From Patescibacteria group bacterium (GTDB lineage Bacteria > Patescibacteriota > Patescibacteriia > PEXW01): 64,000 nucleotides of DNA. Each line of letters opens with the position of its first letter. The first letter of the stretch is position 1. The notes under the pieces are model-generated. The model saw nothing but the letters and a program-made list of their open reading frames with translations. It was not told the DNA's origin and made no database searches. Location: assembly GCA_041665345.1 (NCBI GenBank), contig JBAYJA010000001.1, positions 9,206 to 73,205 on the forward strand. Reading direction: 5' to 3'. The position numbers and the translations under genes are program-made. Of the stretch, positions 25,020 to 28,810 are shown piece after piece.

Positions 25020-25742
25020 ATGATCGACACCGTTGTCATTTCCGCCGCGGGGAAAGGCACCCGCATGAAGGAACTTGCCAAAGACAAACCCAAGCACATG
25101 ATTGAAGTGAATGGGAAACCTTTCCTGTGGTACCTCTTGGAAAACCTCCGTGCGGTTGGGTACGAGAAGATTGTGGTGGTGGTTGGCCACCTGAGCCAGC
25201 ACATTGAGCAATTTGCTGAATCGTACCCGCATCCAATTACCATCGTGAATCAGTATGCGGTCATGGGGGAAGACGTGTACGGTACAGCGGTGCCCGTCCT
25301 CGCTGCGGAAAAAGCGGTGAACGGAAAGCCGTTTTGTGCGCTGTACGGTGATAACCTGTACTCAGTTCGTGACCTCAAGTCTATGATCCATGAGGATGGG
25401 TTCTGCTACGTGGGCGGCCTGCCGCATGATGATTGGCAGAAGTACGGCGTGCTCATTCCCGGGGAAAATGATCAGTTGAAGGAAATTATAGAAAAACCTG
25501 ATCACGATGTTGGCTCTACGCTCATTAACACTGGGCTCTTTACCTTCACGCACGACATTTTTGACGCGTGCCGCCGGGTAAAGCCAACGCCGCCGAAGAA
25601 TGAACTGTACCTCACCGATGCGGTCACGGAGCTGGCCAAGGCGGGCAAGTTCCGCATCCAGCGCATCCAAGACTACTGGAAAGACTTTGGCTCACCAGAA
25701 GATGTGGGCACGGTGAGCTCATTCCTCCAACAACGAACATGA
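25020..25742 (+). CDS. Sugar-phosphate nucleotidyltransferase.
   Basis: N-terminal VISAAGKGTRMK carries the G-x-G-T-R nucleotidyltransferase signature. Confidence 0.7.
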   Translation: MIDTVVISAAGKGTRMKELAKDKPKHMIEVNGKPFLWYLLENLRAVGYEKIVVVVGHLSQHIEQFAESYPHPITIVNQYAVMGEDVYGTAVPVLAAEKAVNGKPFCALYGDNLYSVRDLKSMIHEDGFCYVGGLPHDDWQKYGVLIPGENDQLKEIIEKPDHDVGSTLINTGLFTFTHDIFDACRRVKPTPPKNELYLTDAVTELAKAGKFRIQRIQDYWKDFGSPEDVGTVSSFLQQRT

Positions 25743-27187
25743 GTAGCCTCGTTGAATCATTCTCAGGGATCCGTGGCACGTGGGGTGAGAGCTTCACCCC
25801 AGAGGTCTGTCGGCGGTACGGTTACGCCTTTGGCCAAATGCTTCTGGCCAAACATGCTGATGCAAACGTGGTGATTGGCCGAGATACGCGGCCATCCGGA
25901 CCTGGCGTGTTTGCTGCTTTGGTGCAGGGTTTGGCAGCGGCTGGGGTACGGCGGGTCATTGATCTGGGCATTAGCTCCACACCCATGACCGAGCACGGAG
26001 TACGGCACTTCCGCGCAGCTGGTGGAGTTATCCTCACTGCTTCCCACAACCAGCCAGAAGATAATGGCTTGAAGTTTTTGCAAGCCACGGGTGGCATTCT
26101 CTCTGCCGGTGACGCCGCCATCCTCATCCACGAAGCAGGCAGCGAAGAAGTGCTGGCTGTGAGCGAAGCCATGGAGGGCGCCACAGCCTCCGTTGGGTTG
26201 GAAATTATTGATGGTCAGCAAGAAGCCATGGATGCGTACCTCCAGTTTGTGCTGGATTCGTCTGGCTGTACTCCTGCCCACGTCCAAAAGGCAAAAGTGA
26301 AAGTGCTGCTGGATATCAATGGCGGGGCAAACGGCGAAGTTGCACCAGCGTTGGCCAAGAAACTCGGATTAGATGTTGTCGTGAAAGGTCAGGAGCCAGG
26401 AATTTTTTGGCGTTTGGTGGAACCGAAGGCAGAATCCCTTGCGCCCCTTGCTACCGAGTTACACGAGGGTATGTTCGCCTGTGCGTTTGACTGCGATGCT
26501 GACCGCATGGAAATCGTCCTGCCGACTTCAAGCCAATTTGCCTTACAGTATGGCCCATTGGTCTCTGGCCAGTACGTCGTTGGTCTGGTTGTGCAGGCAA
26601 TCCTCAGTATCGATCCAAAGGCAAAGGAGCATCCGGTGATTACCAATGATGCGACGAGTCAGATGGTGAAGCGCATTGCCGAACATGCTGGGACAACGGT
26701 GGAAGAAGTGGAGGTTGGGGAAACGAATGTTGTGTCCATGATGCACGAGCGGGGGAGCAAGGTCGGTGGTGAAGGATCTAATGGTGGCAGCATTGTGGCT
26801 CCTGGGCAGTGCCGTGACGGCTTGCAGGCGCTCGCTGTTATCATTCGGTATCTGGCTGAGCACCAGACAACTTTGGATGAGACTTTACTCCACTTACCAC
26901 ATTTCCACACCGTGGCGGTCAAGGCGCAATGCCTGGGGAGCCAGCAAGCCCGGGCGCGGCAGGGGATGATCGAGCACTATCGCGTCGCGGGCGCGCGGGT
27001 AACGACCACTGGCGGACAGGACGGCGGGGTGAAGGCATGGGTCCACTCTGATGCTTGGGTTTGGTGGCGTGCCTCCAAGACTGAAGCCGGCGTCTTCCGC
27101 ATCATCGCGGACGCCAAAGACCGGCACACCGCAGAGCAGCTGCTGAAAGAAGCTAATGAGGTCTTTGCTCGGGTGAGTAAAGTGTAG
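25739..27187 (+). CDS. Phosphohexomutase, of the phosphoglucosamine mutase / phosphomannomutase family.
   Basis: Active-site TASHNQPEDNG (phosphoserine loop), a four-domain length of 482 aa, and overlap with the upstream nucleotidyltransferase gene suggesting an operon. Confidence 0.8.
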   Translation: MSSLVESFSGIRGTWGESFTPEVCRRYGYAFGQMLLAKHADANVVIGRDTRPSGPGVFAALVQGLAAAGVRRVIDLGISSTPMTEHGVRHFRAAGGVILTASHNQPEDNGLKFLQATGGILSAGDAAILIHEAGSEEVLAVSEAMEGATASVGLEIIDGQQEAMDAYLQFVLDSSGCTPAHVQKAKVKVLLDINGGANGEVAPALAKKLGLDVVVKGQEPGIFWRLVEPKAESLAPLATELHEGMFACAFDCDADRMEIVLPTSSQFALQYGPLVSGQYVVGLVVQAILSIDPKAKEHPVITNDATSQMVKRIAEHAGTTVEEVEVGETNVVSMMHERGSKVGGEGSNGGSIVAPGQCRDGLQALAVIIRYLAEHQTTLDETLLHLPHFHTVAVKAQCLGSQQARARQGMIEHYRVAGARVTTTGGQDGGVKAWVHSDAWVWWRASKTEAGVFRIIADAKDRHTAEQLLKEANEVFARVSKV

Positions 27188-27400
27188 GAGAAGCCATAGG
27201 CCGTAAAGCCATAAAGCCGTAAGCCAATGCAACTACCCAGAGCGGCCTTTCTAGGCCGCGATATTTGGAGCACGTCTCTCCGATAAGGGTTCCTCCCGCA
27301 CTCCAGAGAACGTGTTGGTCCTGGGTAGAACAAGTATCTTCCACACTCCTTCATCTTGCCCCCAAGCGTGTGCCGTGCTACCTTTTTTGCGCATCTGTTT

Positions 27401-27459
27401 GCGCCCGTAGCTCAATGGATAGAGCGTTGGCCTCCCTCCGGGCCGGAGGCCGAAGCCAA
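27401..27459 (+). pseudogene. Fragment of a tRNA-Arg: acceptor 5' strand, D-arm and anticodon arm only, with a 16-nt palindromic insertion in the anticodon loop. No T-arm or 3' acceptor strand is found.
   Basis: GCGCCCG-TA-GCTCAATGGATAGAGC-G-TTGGC-CT[CCCTCCGGGCCGGAGG]CCGAA-GCCAA. Removing the 16-nt insert restores the loop CTCCGAA with anticodon CCG. No complementary CGGGCGC occurs downstream. Confidence 0.45.
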
Positions 27460-27467
27460 AAATTAGT

Positions 27468-27740
27468 ATGTTTTACGTCTATCTTTTACGAAGTAAGAAG
27501 GATCAGTCATACTATATTGGACAAACTGAAGATGTGGATGCAAGACTGCAACGCCATAACAATGGCTATGTTTCTTCAACACGTAGAAGAGTTCCTTGGG
27601 TACTAGTAGGATTTGAGACATACCCAACTCGATCAGCAGCTCGGTGGAGAGAGTTTGAATTGAAAAACTCTTCAGTGAAAAGAAGGGAGTTTATCAAAAA
27701 CGTTCGAATAGGTCCCCATAGCTCAACGGATAGAGCGTAG
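27468..27740 (+). CDS. GIY-YIG nuclease family protein of the YhbQ/COG2827 type. The ORF reads through into the downstream tRNA.
   Basis: YVYLLRSKKDQSYYIGQTEDVDARLQRHNNG closely matches the small standalone GIY-YIG proteins, as far as recalled from E. coli YhbQ. The last 29 nt overlap tRNA-Arg. Confidence 0.7.
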   Translation: MFYVYLLRSKKDQSYYIGQTEDVDARLQRHNNGYVSSTRRRVPWVLVGFETYPTRSAARWREFELKNSSVKRREFIKNVRIGPHSSTDRA

Positions 27741-27786
27741 GCCTCCGAAGCCTGAGATTGAGGTTCAATTCCTCATGGGGACACCA
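27712..27786 (+). tRNA. tRNA-Arg (anticodon CCG) with a genomically encoded CCA.
   Basis: Manual cloverleaf: acceptor GTCCCCA/TGGGGAC, D-arm GCTC-AACGGATA-GAGC, anticodon arm TAGGC-CTCCGAA-GCCTG, T-arm TGAGG-TTCAATT-CCTCA, discriminator A, CCA. Confidence 0.8.
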
Positions 27787-27841
27787 ATGAGCTTTTGTTT
27801 CCACGTTAGATTTCTAGCCTCCGGAAGATTTTTTTGCGTAT

Positions 27842-27870
27842 AAAAAAAGCTGCCGAAGGGATTCGGCAGC
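27842..27870 (-). terminator. Intrinsic terminator for prs.
   Basis: GCTGCCGAA-ggga-TTCGGCAGC with a U-tract on the minus strand. Confidence 0.55.
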
Positions 27871-27877
27871 TAGATGA

Positions 27878-28810
27878 TTAATCGTCAACGAGCATTTCGT
27901 TAAATTGCTTCACAATAAGCGGTGCCAGAGAAAGCTGCTCGATTTTGTCGGTGCGCTTTTCCCACGGCAGGTAAATGGAGTCAGTCGTGTAGATTTTTGA
28001 TATGATCTCCGCCCGATTGAGCGTCTGAATTGCACCTCCGGCCAGCACGCCATGGGTGGCCATGACGATAATATTCTCTCCGCCAACTTTCCGCACCTCT
28101 CGTTCGGTAGCTGCAATCGTGCCGGCAGTGCTGATTTCATCTTCTCGGATAATTGCGGTAATACCCCGCAAGCTGCCTTGGATACCATGTGACTCCGAAA
28201 TATCATGCTCCGGCCGACTTTTGATCAGCGAGATCATTGGAATGCCTAGAGTTTTGGCAAAAGCTTCAGTGGTTTTCGATCTGCCTTTATCCGGACTCAA
28301 AGCCCGAACGTTGCTGAGGTCTCGATCTCTCAGCACATCCACGAAGAGTGGATTTGCATCAATGACCCAGGTGCGCAAACCTGCATCTTGGAAGTACTGA
28401 ACATTCTTTGGTGAATGCGGGTCGCAGAGCATCACGTCGGTTGCACCAGCAGCTGCAAGTAATTTAGCCACGAGCTCCGCAGTAACTGCTTCGCCACCAT
28501 CCTTGTCTCGCTCCTGCCGTCGGAAACCCATGAAGGGCATGACCGCAATGAGTCGCGAAGGATTGTACCGTTTGACAGCACTAACAATCGCAAAGAGATC
28601 AAAGTACGTCTTCGGAGCGTACTCACCAGTCGATTGCACCACCGCACACGGTTGACCCACTATCACAGCAGGGTGGGTAATCTTGTACCATGGCTCAGAA
28701 TCTGCAAACTCTCGTATACCCACCTCACTGAGGGGTTGTCCAAGTAGTTCACAGACTCCTCGTGCCATTTTATGACTCGCTCGACCGCAAAAAATGAGTG
28801 GTTTTACCAT
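27878..28810 (-). CDS. prs: Ribose-phosphate pyrophosphokinase (PRPP synthetase).
   Basis: Two PRTase-type domains, the PRPP-binding loop ISTAGT, and an N-terminal LIFCGRASHKMARGV, at a typical 310 aa. Confidence 0.85.
   Translation of the reverse strand: MVKPLIFCGRASHKMARGVCELLGQPLSEVGIREFADSEPWYKITHPAVIVGQPCAVVQSTGEYAPKTYFDLFAIVSAVKRYNPSRLIAVMPFMGFRRQERDKDGGEAVTAELVAKLLAAAGATDVMLCDPHSPKNVQYFQDAGLRTWVIDANPLFVDVLRDRDLSNVRALSPDKGRSKTTEAFAKTLGIPMISLIKSRPEHDISESHGIQGSLRGITAIIREDEISTAGTIAATEREVRKVGGENIIVMATHGVLAGGAIQTLNRAEIISKIYTTDSIYLPWEKRTDKIEQLSLAPLIVKQFNEMLVDD

What the first reader, a model, noticed from the sequence alone, without database searches (positions are those of the whole stretch)
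27401..27786. tRNA-Arg 5' fragment with a palindromic anticodon-loop insertion, followed by a GIY-YIG nuclease gene that runs into an intact tRNA-Arg(CCG)
At 27401-27459 there is a near-perfect tRNA 5' half (acceptor 5' strand, D-arm and anticodon arm) whose anticodon loop carries a 16-nt insertion. The insert contains the palindrome CCTCCGGGCCGGAGG, and deleting it restores a CCG-anticodon loop. No T-arm or 3' acceptor strand follows. Instead a 90-aa GIY-YIG nuclease gene of the YhbQ/COG2827 type starts 9 nt downstream, and its reading frame continues 29 nt into a complete tRNA-Arg(CCG) with its own acceptor stem. This looks like a tRNA gene disrupted and replaced by an insertion carrying a nuclease gene and a fresh tRNA copy, or a nuclease-mediated tRNA-gene conversion event. 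A CCTCCGGAAG segment just 3' of the intact tRNA (27814-27823) echoes the palindrome.
Basis: seen in the sequence. Interest (0 to 1): 0.65.

Follow-up and report, generated by a model that had tools for sequence, protein, structure and literature searches.

The report
tRNA-replacing GIY-YIG nuclease cassette
A tiny nuclease gene that carries its own arginine tRNA has overwritten this bacterium's original tRNA gene and left a hairpin-capped stump; the same design sits beside many different tRNA genes in several bacterial phyla and I found no description of it.

Summary
Positions 27401-27459 hold the first 43 nt of a tRNA-Arg(CCG) with a 16-nt palindromic insert in its anticodon loop. A 90-aa GIY-YIG gene (27468-27740) follows and overlaps an intact tRNA-Arg(CCG) (27712-27786) by 29 nt.

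Three related genomes with the same gene order have one intact tRNA at this site and no nuclease gene. Its 5' end matches the stump. The intact tRNA in the window is a different allele. So the resident tRNA was truncated and replaced by a nuclease-plus-tRNA insert of about 330 bp.

This is not a one-off. In 160 related loci, 68 have a tRNA starting within 60 nt of the nuclease stop codon (0.5 expected), covering 17 anticodons. Of 56 non-redundant junctions, 46 also carry a remnant of the same tRNA, usually interrupted by GC-rich palindromes. Some loci hold stacked remnants or tandem arrays.

The protein is a minimal UPF0213/Slx1-like nuclease under purifying selection. The stump is also conserved, which is unexplained.

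The best reading is a selfish, homing-type cassette that targets tRNA genes. Cleavage activity, the target site and the role of the palindrome are untested. I found no published description.

The parts
27365..27379 (+). Terminator-like hairpin with a T run after the upstream phosphomutase (PGM) gene, about 20 nt before the stump. It marks the left edge of the tRNA locus.
   Evidence: pattern scan. This is a consensus match only.
27401..27459 (+). 5' remnant (tRNA positions 1-43) of the resident, native-type tRNA-Arg(CCG). It keeps the acceptor 5' strand, the D arm and the whole anticodon stem, and lacks the variable loop, T arm and acceptor 3' strand.
   Evidence: The first 27 nt are identical to the intact syntenic tRNA of L084. 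It is 34/34 + 9/9 nt identical to the orthologous remnant in L081, although neutral sites are near saturation.
27434..27449 (.). 16-nt GC-rich insert in the anticodon loop. It contains the perfect palindrome CCTCCGGGCCGGAGG (27435-27449). It is the minimal form (CCTCC-GGGCC-GGAGG) of a module family found in pseudo-tRNA loops of related cassettes.
   Evidence: unique in the window, 0 in shuffles. The same 25-nt core CCTCCCTCCGGGCCGGAGGCCGAAG occurs in L087 in a different tRNA allele.
27468..27740 (+). Gene for a 90-aa single-domain GIY-YIG nuclease of the UPF0213/Slx1-like type. Its last 29 nt, including the TAG stop, lie inside the tRNA gene.
   Evidence: Pfam PF01541 at E 2.6e-14. PDB profile hits are 1zg2 at 1.5e-14 and SLX1 at 2e-7. 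The AF2 model has pLDDT 91 and its best fold matches are UPF0213 and Slx1. Codon-position identity to the L081 orthologue is 81/81/47%.
27712..27786 (+). Intact tRNA-Arg(CCG) with an encoded CCA. It is a non-native allele (acceptor GTCCCCA/TGGGGAC) that replaces the resident gene.
   Evidence: ARAGORN and Rfam at 68.4 bits. It is 75/75 identical in L081 and differs from the GCGCCCG-type tRNA of relatives without the insert.
27814..27823 (+). CCTCCGGAAG, a possible decayed trace of a second, downstream palindrome-bearing anticodon arm. This is uncertain.
   Evidence: Related loci often carry such remnants downstream of the tRNA. L081 has CCCTCCCTCCGG in the equivalent spacer. However, CCTCCGG occurs 10 times in the window.
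27848..27871 (-). Terminator-like hairpin of the convergent prs gene. It marks the right edge of the locus.
   Evidence: The gap between PGM and prs is 690 nt here, against 391-463 nt in relatives without the insert.

Best explanation
This locus holds a small selfish cassette: a minimal Slx1/UPF0213-type GIY-YIG nuclease gene fused head-to-tail to its own functional tRNA-Arg(CCG). The cassette has invaded the host's resident tRNA-Arg(CCG) gene.

**Shown**
- The resident gene was cut down to its first 43 nt.
- Everything from there to the 3' CCA was replaced by spacer, nuclease gene and a different tRNA allele.
- The host keeps the decoding function only through the incoming tRNA, which physically overlaps the nuclease gene.

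**Inferred**
- The nuclease breaks a cassette-free tRNA gene.
- The break is repaired by copying the cassette. The only homology needed is the tRNA sequence itself: the stump on one side, and the tRNA or a 3' remnant on the other.
- This would let the cassette enter the same tRNA gene in unrelated genomes and occasionally switch to other tRNAs.
- Repeated invasions would leave stacked remnants, and unequal recombination would leave tandem arrays.
- The GC-rich palindrome that caps a loop of every remnant travels with the cassette lineage. Its role is open. It may block re-cleavage or recombination of the dead copy, act as a nuclease or cruciform site, or form an RNA leader hairpin.
- Transcription probably runs from the native tRNA promoter through stump, ORF and tRNA.
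For: **Insertion and replacement**
- L082, L084 and L085 lack the insert and carry one native-type tRNA at the syntenic site.
- The stump matches that native type, with 27 of 27 nt identical to L084. The intact tRNA is another allele.
- The extra DNA is only about 330 bp, which leaves no room for an integrase.
- The downstream flank of L081 becomes homologous to the native trailer of L084 directly after CACCA.

**Recurrence**
- 68 of 160 related loci have a same-strand tRNA starting within 60 nt of the ORF stop, against 0.49 expected. Twelve more have a tRNA ending 0-60 nt upstream of the ORF. Seventeen anticodons are involved.
- Of 56 non-redundant junctions, 41 have an upstream remnant of the same tRNA, 12 have a remnant downstream of the tRNA, and 46 have at least one.

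**Signs of mobility and turnover**
- Protein clades follow tRNA identity, and the Asp clade spans Bacteroidota, Aminicenantia and WOR-3.
- One palindrome module type occurs at D-loop position 21/22 in Ile, Lys, Val, Asn, Arg and Pro remnants.
- L088 has two stacked remnants with different acceptor strands.
- Identical tandem units occur in L043, L028 and L015.
- Degenerate ORFs occur in L019, L063 and L033, and an ORF-less relic in L084.
- One copy abuts the RNase P RNA gene (L021).

**A real nuclease gene**
- The GIY/YIG motifs and the Arg, His and Glu residues are conserved.
- The fold is UPF0213/Slx1-like.
- Purifying selection is seen in 16 of 17 locus pairs; the 17th pair is identical.

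**Precedent**
- Fungal mitochondrial mobile endonuclease ORFs insert with a foreign replacement gene end and leave the native end behind (PMC3630166).
- T4 SegB is a GIY-YIG homing nuclease inside a tRNA gene cluster (PMC2330249).
Against: - No cleavage activity or target site is known for any UPF0213 protein.
- The protein has no DNA-binding domain, so sequence-specific homing is hard to picture.
- In L002 and L008 the intact neighbouring tRNA has the same 5' half as its remnant, so it is unclear how it would escape cleavage.
- Window and L081 share the cassette across saturated synonymous divergence, with selection on the ORF and a perfectly conserved stump. This fits a long-resident, functional module as well as or better than a recently homed parasite.
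- Homologues are nearly absent from phages, at 4 of 50,697 records.
- No strain-level presence/absence polymorphism was examined. The genomes without the insert are only 56-58% identical in PGM.
- L084 itself carries a scar, so it is not a pristine empty site.
Confidence: 0.6

Rival explanations
1. This is a resident functional module rather than an active parasite. The nuclease acts on tRNA, or on structures formed at tRNA genes. The hairpin-capped pseudo-tRNA is a cis-acting or decoy RNA, for example an antitoxin-like mimic that holds the nuclease in check as in type III toxin-antitoxin pairs, or a 5' leader that controls expression.
For: - The stump is 43/43 identical between window and L081, while neutral sites are about 50-57% identical.
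- Remnant regions are generally better conserved than third codon positions.
- The ORF is under purifying selection.
- Arrays of 11 anticodon-capped pseudo-tRNAs precede the ORF in L015, which recalls ToxI repeats.
- The module shows covarying stems.
- Dunin-Horkawicz 2006 reports a prokaryotic Slx1-like domain fused to a tRNA Gm18 methyltransferase (PMC1564403).
Against: - No part of the pseudo-tRNA is kept in common. Different loci retain the 5' part, the 3' part or nearly the whole tRNA, with caps in the D, anticodon, variable or T region.
- All characterised GIY-YIG enzymes I know of cut DNA (my own knowledge).
- PADLOC gives only a motif-level partial hit.
- A decoy model does not by itself explain replacement of the native tRNA allele, stacked remnants, or copies at RNase P RNA and in repeat-flanked loci.
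- A test for G-U versus A-C mismatches gave no strand bias, at about 3 events each.
Confidence: 0.2
2. The remnant is a scar of an ordinary integrase-type genomic island or prophage that once integrated at the tRNA gene. The GIY-YIG gene is an unrelated neighbour.
For: - tRNA genes are classic integration sites, and such events leave partial tRNA copies (general knowledge).
- L084 has a duplicated tRNA 3' end 85 nt after its tRNA.
Against: - Integrase-mediated events duplicate the 3' part of the tRNA, whereas here the 5' part is retained.
- The whole difference from relatives without the insert is about 330 bp, with both flanks syntenic, and no integrase is present.
- The ORF-tRNA junction and the remnant recur together in dozens of unrelated genomes.
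Confidence: 0.04
3. A local tandem duplication of the tRNA gene was followed by decay of one copy, and a small gene happens to lie between the copies. No mobility or nuclease action is involved.
For: - In some loci the remnant and the intact tRNA share an identical 5' part (L002, L008, L043).
- Tandem arrays exist.
Against: - In the window the non-functional copy keeps the ancestral sequence shared with relatives, while the functional copy differs in the acceptor and anticodon stems. In-place decay predicts the opposite.
- The same ORF family sits at the junction in 68 of 160 loci.
- Remnants carry lineage-specific structured palindromes rather than random decay.
Confidence: 0.05
4. This is an interrupted but functional tRNA: a group I intron carrying a homing endonuclease gene, or a split or permuted tRNA whose 5' half is joined to a 3' half at the RNA level.
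For: Patescibacteria do carry group I introns in tRNA anticodon loops, some with endonuclease genes (PMC13011429).
Against: - No group I intron or other ribozyme match appears in 27000-28200, even at E up to 10.
- No sequence can pair with GCGCCCG within 600 nt.
- The anticodon stem closes again right after the 16-nt insert.
- The downstream tRNA is complete on its own.
Confidence: 0.01

Closest known systems
Mobile endonuclease ORFs (mORFs) of fungal mitochondria, e.g. Allomyces macrogynus atp6 and Glomus atp6/atp9/cox2/nad3 hybrids (Paquin et al. 1994, as described in PMC3630166)
   Same: A free-standing endonuclease gene inserts into a conserved host gene and brings a foreign copy of the displaced part, so function is kept. 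The native part is left beside it as a dead fragment that still matches close relatives.
   Different: The target here is a bacterial chromosomal tRNA gene. The whole tRNA is supplied, not only one end. The fragment left behind in this window is the 5' part. The nuclease is a roughly 85-aa Slx1-like domain with no DNA-binding module. The dead copy carries a structured palindrome.
Phage T4 SegB, a GIY-YIG homing endonuclease in the tRNA gene cluster (PMC2330249; see also PMC13096335)
   Same: It is a GIY-YIG nuclease gene embedded among tRNA genes. It cleaves the tRNA region of a competing genome and is inherited together with flanking tRNA sequence.
   Different: [quoted passage not shown] The window protein groups with UPF0213/Slx1, with I-TevI only a marginal match. 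SegB has no tRNA stump, palindrome cap or overlap of its ORF with a tRNA.
UPF0213 proteins (BH0048, EF2693; the YhbQ family) and eukaryotic Slx1
   Same: They share sequence and fold: 1zg2 at E 1.5e-14, SLX1 at 2e-7, and top Foldseek hits. The GIY, YIG, Arg, His and Glu positions are conserved.
   Different: The bacterial proteins have no assigned function. Slx1 needs Slx4 and cuts branched DNA. No link to tRNA genes was reported in the 2006 superfamily survey.
GIY-YIG-encoding non-intron insertion sequences in rRNA genes of CPR bacteria (PMC11270868)
   Same: Same bacterial group and same nuclease superfamily. These are also inserts without a ribozyme in structural RNA genes, mostly at tops or bases of stem-loops.
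   Different: Those interrupt rRNA genes and carry no replacement copy. Here the ORF lies beside the tRNA, a spare tRNA is supplied, and only the small palindrome sits in the loop.
Group I introns with homing endonuclease genes in tRNA anticodon loops of Patescibacteria (PMC13011429)
   Same: Same phylum, and the same target region of a tRNA gene.
   Different: There is no intron RNA and no 3' exon. The reported intron endonucleases are of the HNH, LAGLIDADG or PD-(D/E)XK type, not GIY-YIG.
Integrase-type islands and prophages at tRNA genes
   Same: They target tRNA genes, preserve tRNA function and leave partial tRNA copies that can stack up.
   Different: They use a tyrosine integrase and duplicate the tRNA 3' end across many kilobases. 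Here there is no integrase, the insert is about 330 bp, and a whole new tRNA is supplied.

Membership tests
GIY-YIG nuclease superfamily (Pfam PF01541) | Profile match above the curated cut-off | tested here: met
   53.7 bits against a cut-off of 22.6, E 2.6e-14, residues 1-69.
GIY-YIG nuclease superfamily (Pfam PF01541) | Conserved catalytic positions: Tyr of the GIY motif, Tyr of the YIG motif, Arg, His and Glu | tested here: met
   Y5, Y16-I17-G18 and R26 are invariant, and H30 and E62 nearly invariant, in 22 homologues. They align to the motifs of UPF0213 structures.
GIY-YIG nuclease superfamily (Pfam PF01541) | Three-stranded sheet flanked by helices | tested here: met
   The AF2 model has pLDDT 91.1 with elements E2-9, E15-20, H23-31, E44-52, H55-67 and H69-78. 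All top fold hits are GIY-YIG domains.
UPF0213 / prokaryotic Slx1-like minimal nucleases (YhbQ type) | Closest relatives by sequence and fold are UPF0213 and Slx1 rather than I-TevI or UvrC | tested here: met
   Profile search: 1zg2 at 1.5e-14, 1ywl at 1.5e-12, SLX1 at 2e-7, I-TevI at 3.6e-3, UvrC at 0.3. Foldseek: 1zg2 at 4.8e-5, Slx1 at 1e-3, I-TevI at 0.33.
UPF0213 / prokaryotic Slx1-like minimal nucleases (YhbQ type) | Single domain of about 80-100 aa with no accessory domain | tested here: met
   The protein is 90 aa. Residues 84-90 are encoded by the tRNA overlap and are disordered in the model.
Free-standing homing endonuclease genes (SegB / mitochondrial mORF type) | Presence/absence of the gene at one conserved locus among relatives | tested here: met
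   Present in the window and L081. Absent at the syntenic site in L082, L084 and L085. These relatives are distant (PGM 56-58% identical), so this is not a within-species polymorphism.
Free-standing homing endonuclease genes (SegB / mitochondrial mORF type) | Co-transfer of adjacent target-gene sequence, with a foreign allele next to the nuclease gene and the native piece displaced | tested here: met
   The native-type stump and a non-native intact tRNA are both present. Stacked remnants occur in L088.
Free-standing homing endonuclease genes (SegB / mitochondrial mORF type) | Site-specific cleavage of the allele that lacks the gene | not testable with these tools
   This needs biochemistry. 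No UPF0213 protein has a defined substrate in the literature I searched.
Free-standing homing endonuclease genes (SegB / mitochondrial mORF type) | A DNA-binding module that gives a long recognition site | tested here: not met
   Only the catalytic domain is present.
Group I intron with homing endonuclease gene in a tRNA gene | Intron ribozyme core | tested here: not met
   No intron family appears in an Rfam scan of 27000-28200 at E up to 10.
Group I intron with homing endonuclease gene in a tRNA gene | A 3' exon that completes the interrupted tRNA | tested here: not met
   There is no CGGGCGC and no T arm for the stump within 600 nt.
Integrase-type element at a tRNA gene | Integrase gene, and a direct repeat of the tRNA 3' end at the far boundary | tested here: not met
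   The inserted DNA is about 330 bp. The retained piece is the 5' part. Both flanks are syntenic with relatives lacking the insert.
Type III toxin-antitoxin (ToxIN-like) | Tandem RNA repeats directly upstream of an endoribonuclease toxin gene | tested here: inconclusive
   The window has one stump and no array. L015 has 11 pseudo-tRNA repeats before the ORF. The nuclease family differs from known toxins, and PADLOC gives no membership.

The most novel reading that the evidence does not exclude
Minimal Slx1-like GIY-YIG nucleases define an unrecognised class of bacterial mobile element that finds its targets by DNA shape rather than sequence.

- The nuclease would cut the hairpin- or cruciform-forming arms of structural RNA genes: tRNA D, anticodon and T arms, RNase P RNA, and perhaps rRNA.
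- The element would insert together with a spare copy of the gene.
- The structured GC-rich palindromes at loop tips would be the footprints or working ends of that reaction.
- Stacked remnants would then be a readable record of serial tRNA gene replacement.
- The element would hold its place because the only working tRNA overlaps its own gene.
Probability: 0.2. Interest if true: 0.88.

Novelty: new variant of a known kind. Interest (0 to 1): 0.74.

Why it matters
- **A lead on an orphan protein family.** UPF0213/YhbQ-type proteins are very widespread. The window protein alone finds 5,710 cluster representatives at 50% identity. The family has had solved structures since 2005 but no known role. 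A tight, recurrent link to tRNA genes, with replaced alleles and capped remnants, gives a concrete and testable function.
- **A new route for horizontal tRNA replacement.** If the cassettes home, a tRNA gene could be replaced horizontally using only the tRNA itself as homology. That would help explain odd tRNA alleles, tRNA pseudogenes and contig breaks at tRNA genes in metagenome-assembled genomes.
- **Practical annotation issues.** Gene callers extend these ORFs into tRNA-derived sequence: tails such as HSSTDRA, and N-terminal extensions read through remnants. tRNA finders report the capped remnants as tRNAs with undefined anticodons.

Tried and rejected
- **Intron or split tRNA.** The Rfam scan found only the tRNA and sub-threshold noise. 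No partner for the stump's acceptor strand exists.
- **Known RNA family for the capped remnants.** A gathering-threshold Rfam scan of 18 loci gave only tRNA and one RNase P RNA.
- **RNA hairpin versus DNA palindrome.**
  - A mismatch census over hairpins gave G-T 9 and A-C 6, and was contaminated by real tRNA arms.
  - On the 31-nt module, about 3 G-U events stood against 3 A-C events. The question is undecided.
  - The stump's RNA fold is no more stable than shuffles (z = 0.21).
- **Long perfect palindrome as the module structure.** It is less well supported (90.1% of cells paired) than an outer stem plus either of two inner hairpins (97.7%).
- **Genome-wide repeat (REP-like) origin of the palindrome.** There is only one copy in the 64-kb window.
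- **Phage origin.** Only 4 of 50,697 phage records have a homologue, and the one I inspected is not next to a tRNA.
- **Defence-system membership.** PADLOC gives only a partial, motif-level hit.
- **Promoter for the locus.** No consensus promoter was found on the + strand. Promoter rules for this phylum are unknown.
- **Literature.** Eight full-text searches found no description of GIY-YIG/tRNA/pseudo-tRNA cassettes.
Full report
**1.

The sequence at 27401-27459 reads GCGCCCG TA GCTC AATGGAT AGAGC G TTGGC CTCC-CTCCGGGCCGGAGG-CCGAA GCCAA. This is a tRNA from position 1 through the 3' strand of the anticodon stem, with a 23-nt loop in place of 7 nt. Removing 16 nt restores CTCCGAA, the loop of a CCG-anticodon tRNA.

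The palindrome CCTCCGGGCCGGAGG (27435-27449) is unique in the window and never arose in shuffles. Nothing after the fragment can form a T arm or pair with GCGCCCG.

An ORF of 90 codons runs from 27468 to 27740. It matches the Pfam GIY-YIG domain at E 2.6e-14. It overlaps by 29 nt the only tRNA gene that ARAGORN finds in the 64 kb, tRNA-Arg(CCG) at 27712-27786. Rfam scores that tRNA at 68.4 bits.

The fragment alone scores below the Rfam threshold (16.9 bits), as a half tRNA must. It is nonetheless clearly tRNA-derived. Residues 8-35 match the intact tRNA at 26 of 28 positions (E 3e-6). A gapped alignment scores 54, against at most 24 for shuffles.

**2. What the protein is**

A profile of 22 homologues finds the UPF0213 proteins BH0048 (1zg2, E 1.5e-14) and EF2693 (1ywl), then eukaryotic Slx1 (2e-7). 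I-TevI (3.6e-3) and UvrC are far weaker.

An AlphaFold model is confident for residues 1-83 (mean pLDDT 91). Its best solved matches are again UPF0213 and Slx1, with I-TevI only marginal. The seven C-terminal residues encoded inside the tRNA are disordered in the model.

The GIY and YIG tyrosines and the Arg are invariant, and the His and Glu nearly so. So this is a bare catalytic domain of the Slx1-like branch, which the 2006 superfamily survey called the minimal form (PMC1564403).

The source is a Patescibacteria metagenome-assembled genome.

**3. Relatives without the insert show an insertion and replacement**

I took the upstream phosphomutase gene (PGM, 25739-27187), found its homologues, and fetched their contigs.

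- **L082, L084 and L085** (PGM 56-58% identical) share the upstream gene order RuvA-FemAB-x-NTP transferase-PGM. L084 and L085 also have prs on the opposite strand downstream, as in the window. Each has one intact tRNA-Arg(CCG) after PGM and no GIY-YIG gene. All three tRNAs begin GCGCCCGTAGCTCA and end CGGGCGCACCA. The first 27 nt in L084 are identical to the window's fragment.
- **L081** (PGM 95% identical) has the window's arrangement: the same stump, a GIY-YIG ORF and an identical tRNA.

The intact tRNA in the window and L081 has the acceptor stem GTCCCCA/TGGGGAC and a different anticodon stem. The non-functional piece therefore keeps the ancestral local sequence, while the functional gene is a different allele. 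In-place duplication and decay predicts the opposite.

The PGM-prs gap is 690 nt here, against 391-463 nt in L084 and L085. The extra DNA is essentially ORF plus tRNA, with no room for an integrase. In L081 the flank right after CACCA is homologous to the native trailer in L084, so the right junction lies at the tRNA's 3' end.

**4. The arrangement is recurrent and widespread**

Scans with an alignment of close homologues returned 80 loci from species-representative genomes (395 confirmed relatives).

- In 68 of these 160 loci a same-strand tRNA gene starts within 60 nt of the ORF's stop codon. The tRNA density elsewhere in the same loci predicts 0.49.
- Twelve more have an intact tRNA ending 0-60 nt before the ORF.
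- Seventeen anticodons are involved. The commonest are Arg-CCG, Asp-GTC, Glu-TTC and Ile-TAT.
- Hosts include Patescibacteria, Bacteroidota, Poribacteria, Nitrospirota, Planctomycetota, Omnitrophota and others.
- Several database proteins end in HSSTDRA-like tails, which are translated D arms.
- In many loci the ORF's stop codon is the tRNA's own TAG at positions 8-10.

**5. Remnants are the rule**

Among 56 non-redundant ORF-to-tRNA junctions:
- 41 have a partial copy of the same tRNA just upstream of the ORF;
- 12 have a partial copy downstream of the tRNA;
- 46 have at least one.

In the mirror arrangement, an intact tRNA is followed by the ORF and then by a nearly full pseudo-copy. Examples are Ser-GGA in Ferruginibacter, and His, Pro, Asp and Gln elsewhere.

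The Arg-CCG clade, to which the window belongs, shows three forms:
- stump-ORF-tRNA: window, L081, L002, L003, L007, L086;
- ORF-tRNA-3' remnant: L087, L088, L106, L012;
- both: L100, L095.

L087's downstream remnant carries exactly the window's loop, CTCC-CTCCGGGCCGGAGG-CCGAA, between different stem sequences. L088 has two successive 3' remnants with different acceptor strands, the outer one of the GCGCCCG type. This reads as a layered record of serial replacement.

Perfect tandem repeats of pseudo-tRNA plus ORF occur in L043 and L028. Eleven identical pseudo-tRNA units occur in L015. Frameshifted or truncated ORFs (L019, L063, L033) and an ORF-less relic in L084 also occur.

**6. The palindromes are structured, lineage-specific modules**

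Remnants are almost always interrupted by GC-rich inverted repeats, and the sequence type tracks the protein clade:
- CCTCCGG...CCGGAGG in Patescibacteria;
- TCCCGAG-NN-CTCGGGA in the Bacteroidota Asp clade;
- TCCCGA...TCGGGA in the Ser clade;
- TTCCGAT...ATCGGAA in Poribacteria;
- other types in the Gln, Glu and Ala clades.

The Patescibacteria module has the form YCTCC-X-TAC-X'-GTA-X-GGAGR, where X' is the reverse complement of X. Four covarying versions were seen: GGCCC/GGGCC, GACCC/GGGTC, GACTC/GAGTC and GGCTC/GAGCC. An outer stem plus either inner hairpin pairs 97.7% of cells, against 90.1% for one long palindrome.

The module sits at fixed tRNA positions:
- D loop 21/22 in Ile, Lys, Val, Asn, Arg and Pro remnants;
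- the anticodon loop in Arg-CCG remnants;
- the T loop in L125.

An identical 31-nt version occurs in four unrelated contigs, upstream in two and downstream in two. So it is inherited or transferred with the cassette, not created anew each time.

The window carries the minimal form, CCTCC-GGGCC-GGAGG. L081 has a 30-nt version at the same spot, so the module changes length quickly while its flanks do not.

Whether it works as an RNA hairpin, a DNA cruciform or a protein site could not be decided. No Rfam family covers it.

**7. Selection**

Between window and L081, PGM third codon positions are only 57% identical, so neutral sites are near saturation.

- The GIY-YIG ORF shows 81/81/47% identity at codon positions 1/2/3, which indicates purifying selection.
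- The tRNA is 75/75 identical.
- The stump is 34/34 nt identical before the insert and 9/9 after it.
- Among 16 further locus pairs, one is identical. In the other 15 the ORF shows the same codon-position signature. The 75 nt before the ATG are usually 80-92% identical, above third positions.

The stump is therefore not simply rotting. This is the main unexplained fact. It fits repeated re-homing with the stump as a homology arm. It also fits a cis-acting role, and it is the strongest point for the rival below.

**8. Most likely mechanism**

*Shown.* The resident tRNA-Arg(CCG) gene was truncated at about position 43 and replaced by a roughly 330-bp unit: an Slx1-like nuclease gene fused to a different, functional tRNA-Arg(CCG). 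Such units recur at many tRNA genes and leave remnants, stacks and arrays. Protein clades follow tRNA identity, and the Asp clade crosses phyla. One module lineage has colonised at least six tRNA identities.

*Inferred.* The nuclease breaks a cassette-free tRNA gene, and repair copies the cassette using tRNA homology alone. The cassette is hard to lose because the only working tRNA overlaps its ORF and probably depends on the promoter upstream of the stump.

This is the logic of mitochondrial mobile endonuclease ORFs, which bring a foreign gene end and leave the native end behind (PMC3630166). It also echoes T4 SegB in the phage tRNA cluster (PMC2330249).

*Weak points.* No activity is known for the family. 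The protein has no DNA-binding domain. It is unclear how the intact neighbouring tRNA escapes cleavage. Window and L081 indicate long-term vertical retention.

**9. Rivals**

- *Resident functional module.* A tRNA-directed nuclease with a pseudo-tRNA decoy or leader would account for the conserved stump and the arrays. It does not explain allele replacement, stacked remnants, or the lack of any shared retained part among pseudo-tRNAs.
- *Integrase scar, simple duplication and decay, or intron/split tRNA.* These are contradicted by the size of the insert, by which copy is ancestral, and by the absence of a ribozyme or a 3' half.

**10. Novelty**

Eight full-text searches found no description of this arrangement. 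The nearest reports are:
- GIY-YIG ORFs in non-intron inserts of CPR rRNA genes, mostly at stem-loop tips (PMC11270868);
- group I introns in Patescibacteria tRNAs, whose endonucleases are not GIY-YIG (PMC13011429).

I rate it a new variant of a known kind: a free-standing, homing-type endonuclease cassette that carries a replacement for the gene it disrupts. The new features are the target class, the minimal Slx1-like nuclease and the structured palindrome caps.

A bolder reading is not excluded. Under it the nuclease finds hairpin-forming arms of RNA genes by shape and the palindromes are its footprints. Two further observations fit. One copy abuts the RNase P RNA gene (L021). A tRNA-less clade has the ORF hugged by 14-23-bp inverted repeats.

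Noticed in passing
L015 1724-3330 and L014 2900-4140 (Poribacteria, chromosome-level assemblies): An intact tRNA-Pro(CGG) is followed by 11 identical 107-nt pseudo-tRNA units, and then by the GIY-YIG ORF. In each unit the anticodon arm is replaced by TTCCGAT-AG-ATCGGAA. L014 has arrays of units made of the last ~60 nt of the ORF plus a pseudo-tRNA. ARAGORN reports these units as tRNAs with two-base anticodons, and Rfam scores them at 34 bits.
   Followed up: partly
L021 1518-2132 (Saccharibacteria contig): A homologous GIY-YIG ORF runs 33 nt into the 5' end of the RNase P RNA gene (Rfam 173.7 bits). Just upstream of the ORF lies the complement of that gene's first 18 nt, so targets are not limited to tRNA genes.
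   Followed up: partly
L022, L040, L048-L052, L066, L069, L070, L073, L077, L079 (ORF at about 3001): A separate protein clade has no adjacent tRNA. The ORF is hugged by 14-23-bp inverted repeats with a shared consensus (ACCCCCACACCAA ... TTGGTGTGGGGGT). In L040 and L048 the 3' end of a host recombinase-like gene is duplicated on both sides of the ORF.
   Followed up: partly
L084 4040-4150: This relative without the insert is not pristine. About 85 nt after its tRNA-Arg there is a second copy of the tRNA's last 20 nt (GATTCCCTTCGGGCGCACCA). It is preceded by CCCCGGCCCGGAGGGC, the 3' end of the Patescibacteria palindrome module, and is followed by the native trailer. It looks like an ORF-less relic of an earlier event.
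   Followed up: partly
window 25739-27187 versus 27878-28810, compared with L081: Divergence changes sharply across the tRNA locus. The PGM protein is 95% identical between window and L081, but the prs protein on the other side is only 54% identical. Between L084 and L085 the figures are 70% for PGM and 24% for prs. Either prs evolves very fast or has been replaced, or the tRNA locus is a recombination boundary.
   Followed up: partly
L082 5026-6651: Just downstream of the tRNA-Arg in this relative lie an HTH gene, a reverse transcriptase (RVT_1) and a bAvd-family gene. These are the parts of a diversity-generating retroelement.
   Followed up: no
window 27712-27740; also L043, L014 and others: The nuclease ORF ends inside the tRNA. 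Here it ends 29 nt in; in many relatives the stop codon is the tRNA's own TAG at positions 8-10. RNase P cleavage at the tRNA 5' end would then leave an mRNA without a stop codon, which might keep nuclease levels low.
   Followed up: no
protein database entries P0003, P0017, P0019, P0024 and many: Gene callers often extend these ORFs by 20-70 codons at the N-terminus through the pseudo-tRNA and palindrome, and at the C-terminus into the tRNA. This produces spurious longer 'GIY-YIG proteins'.
   Followed up: no
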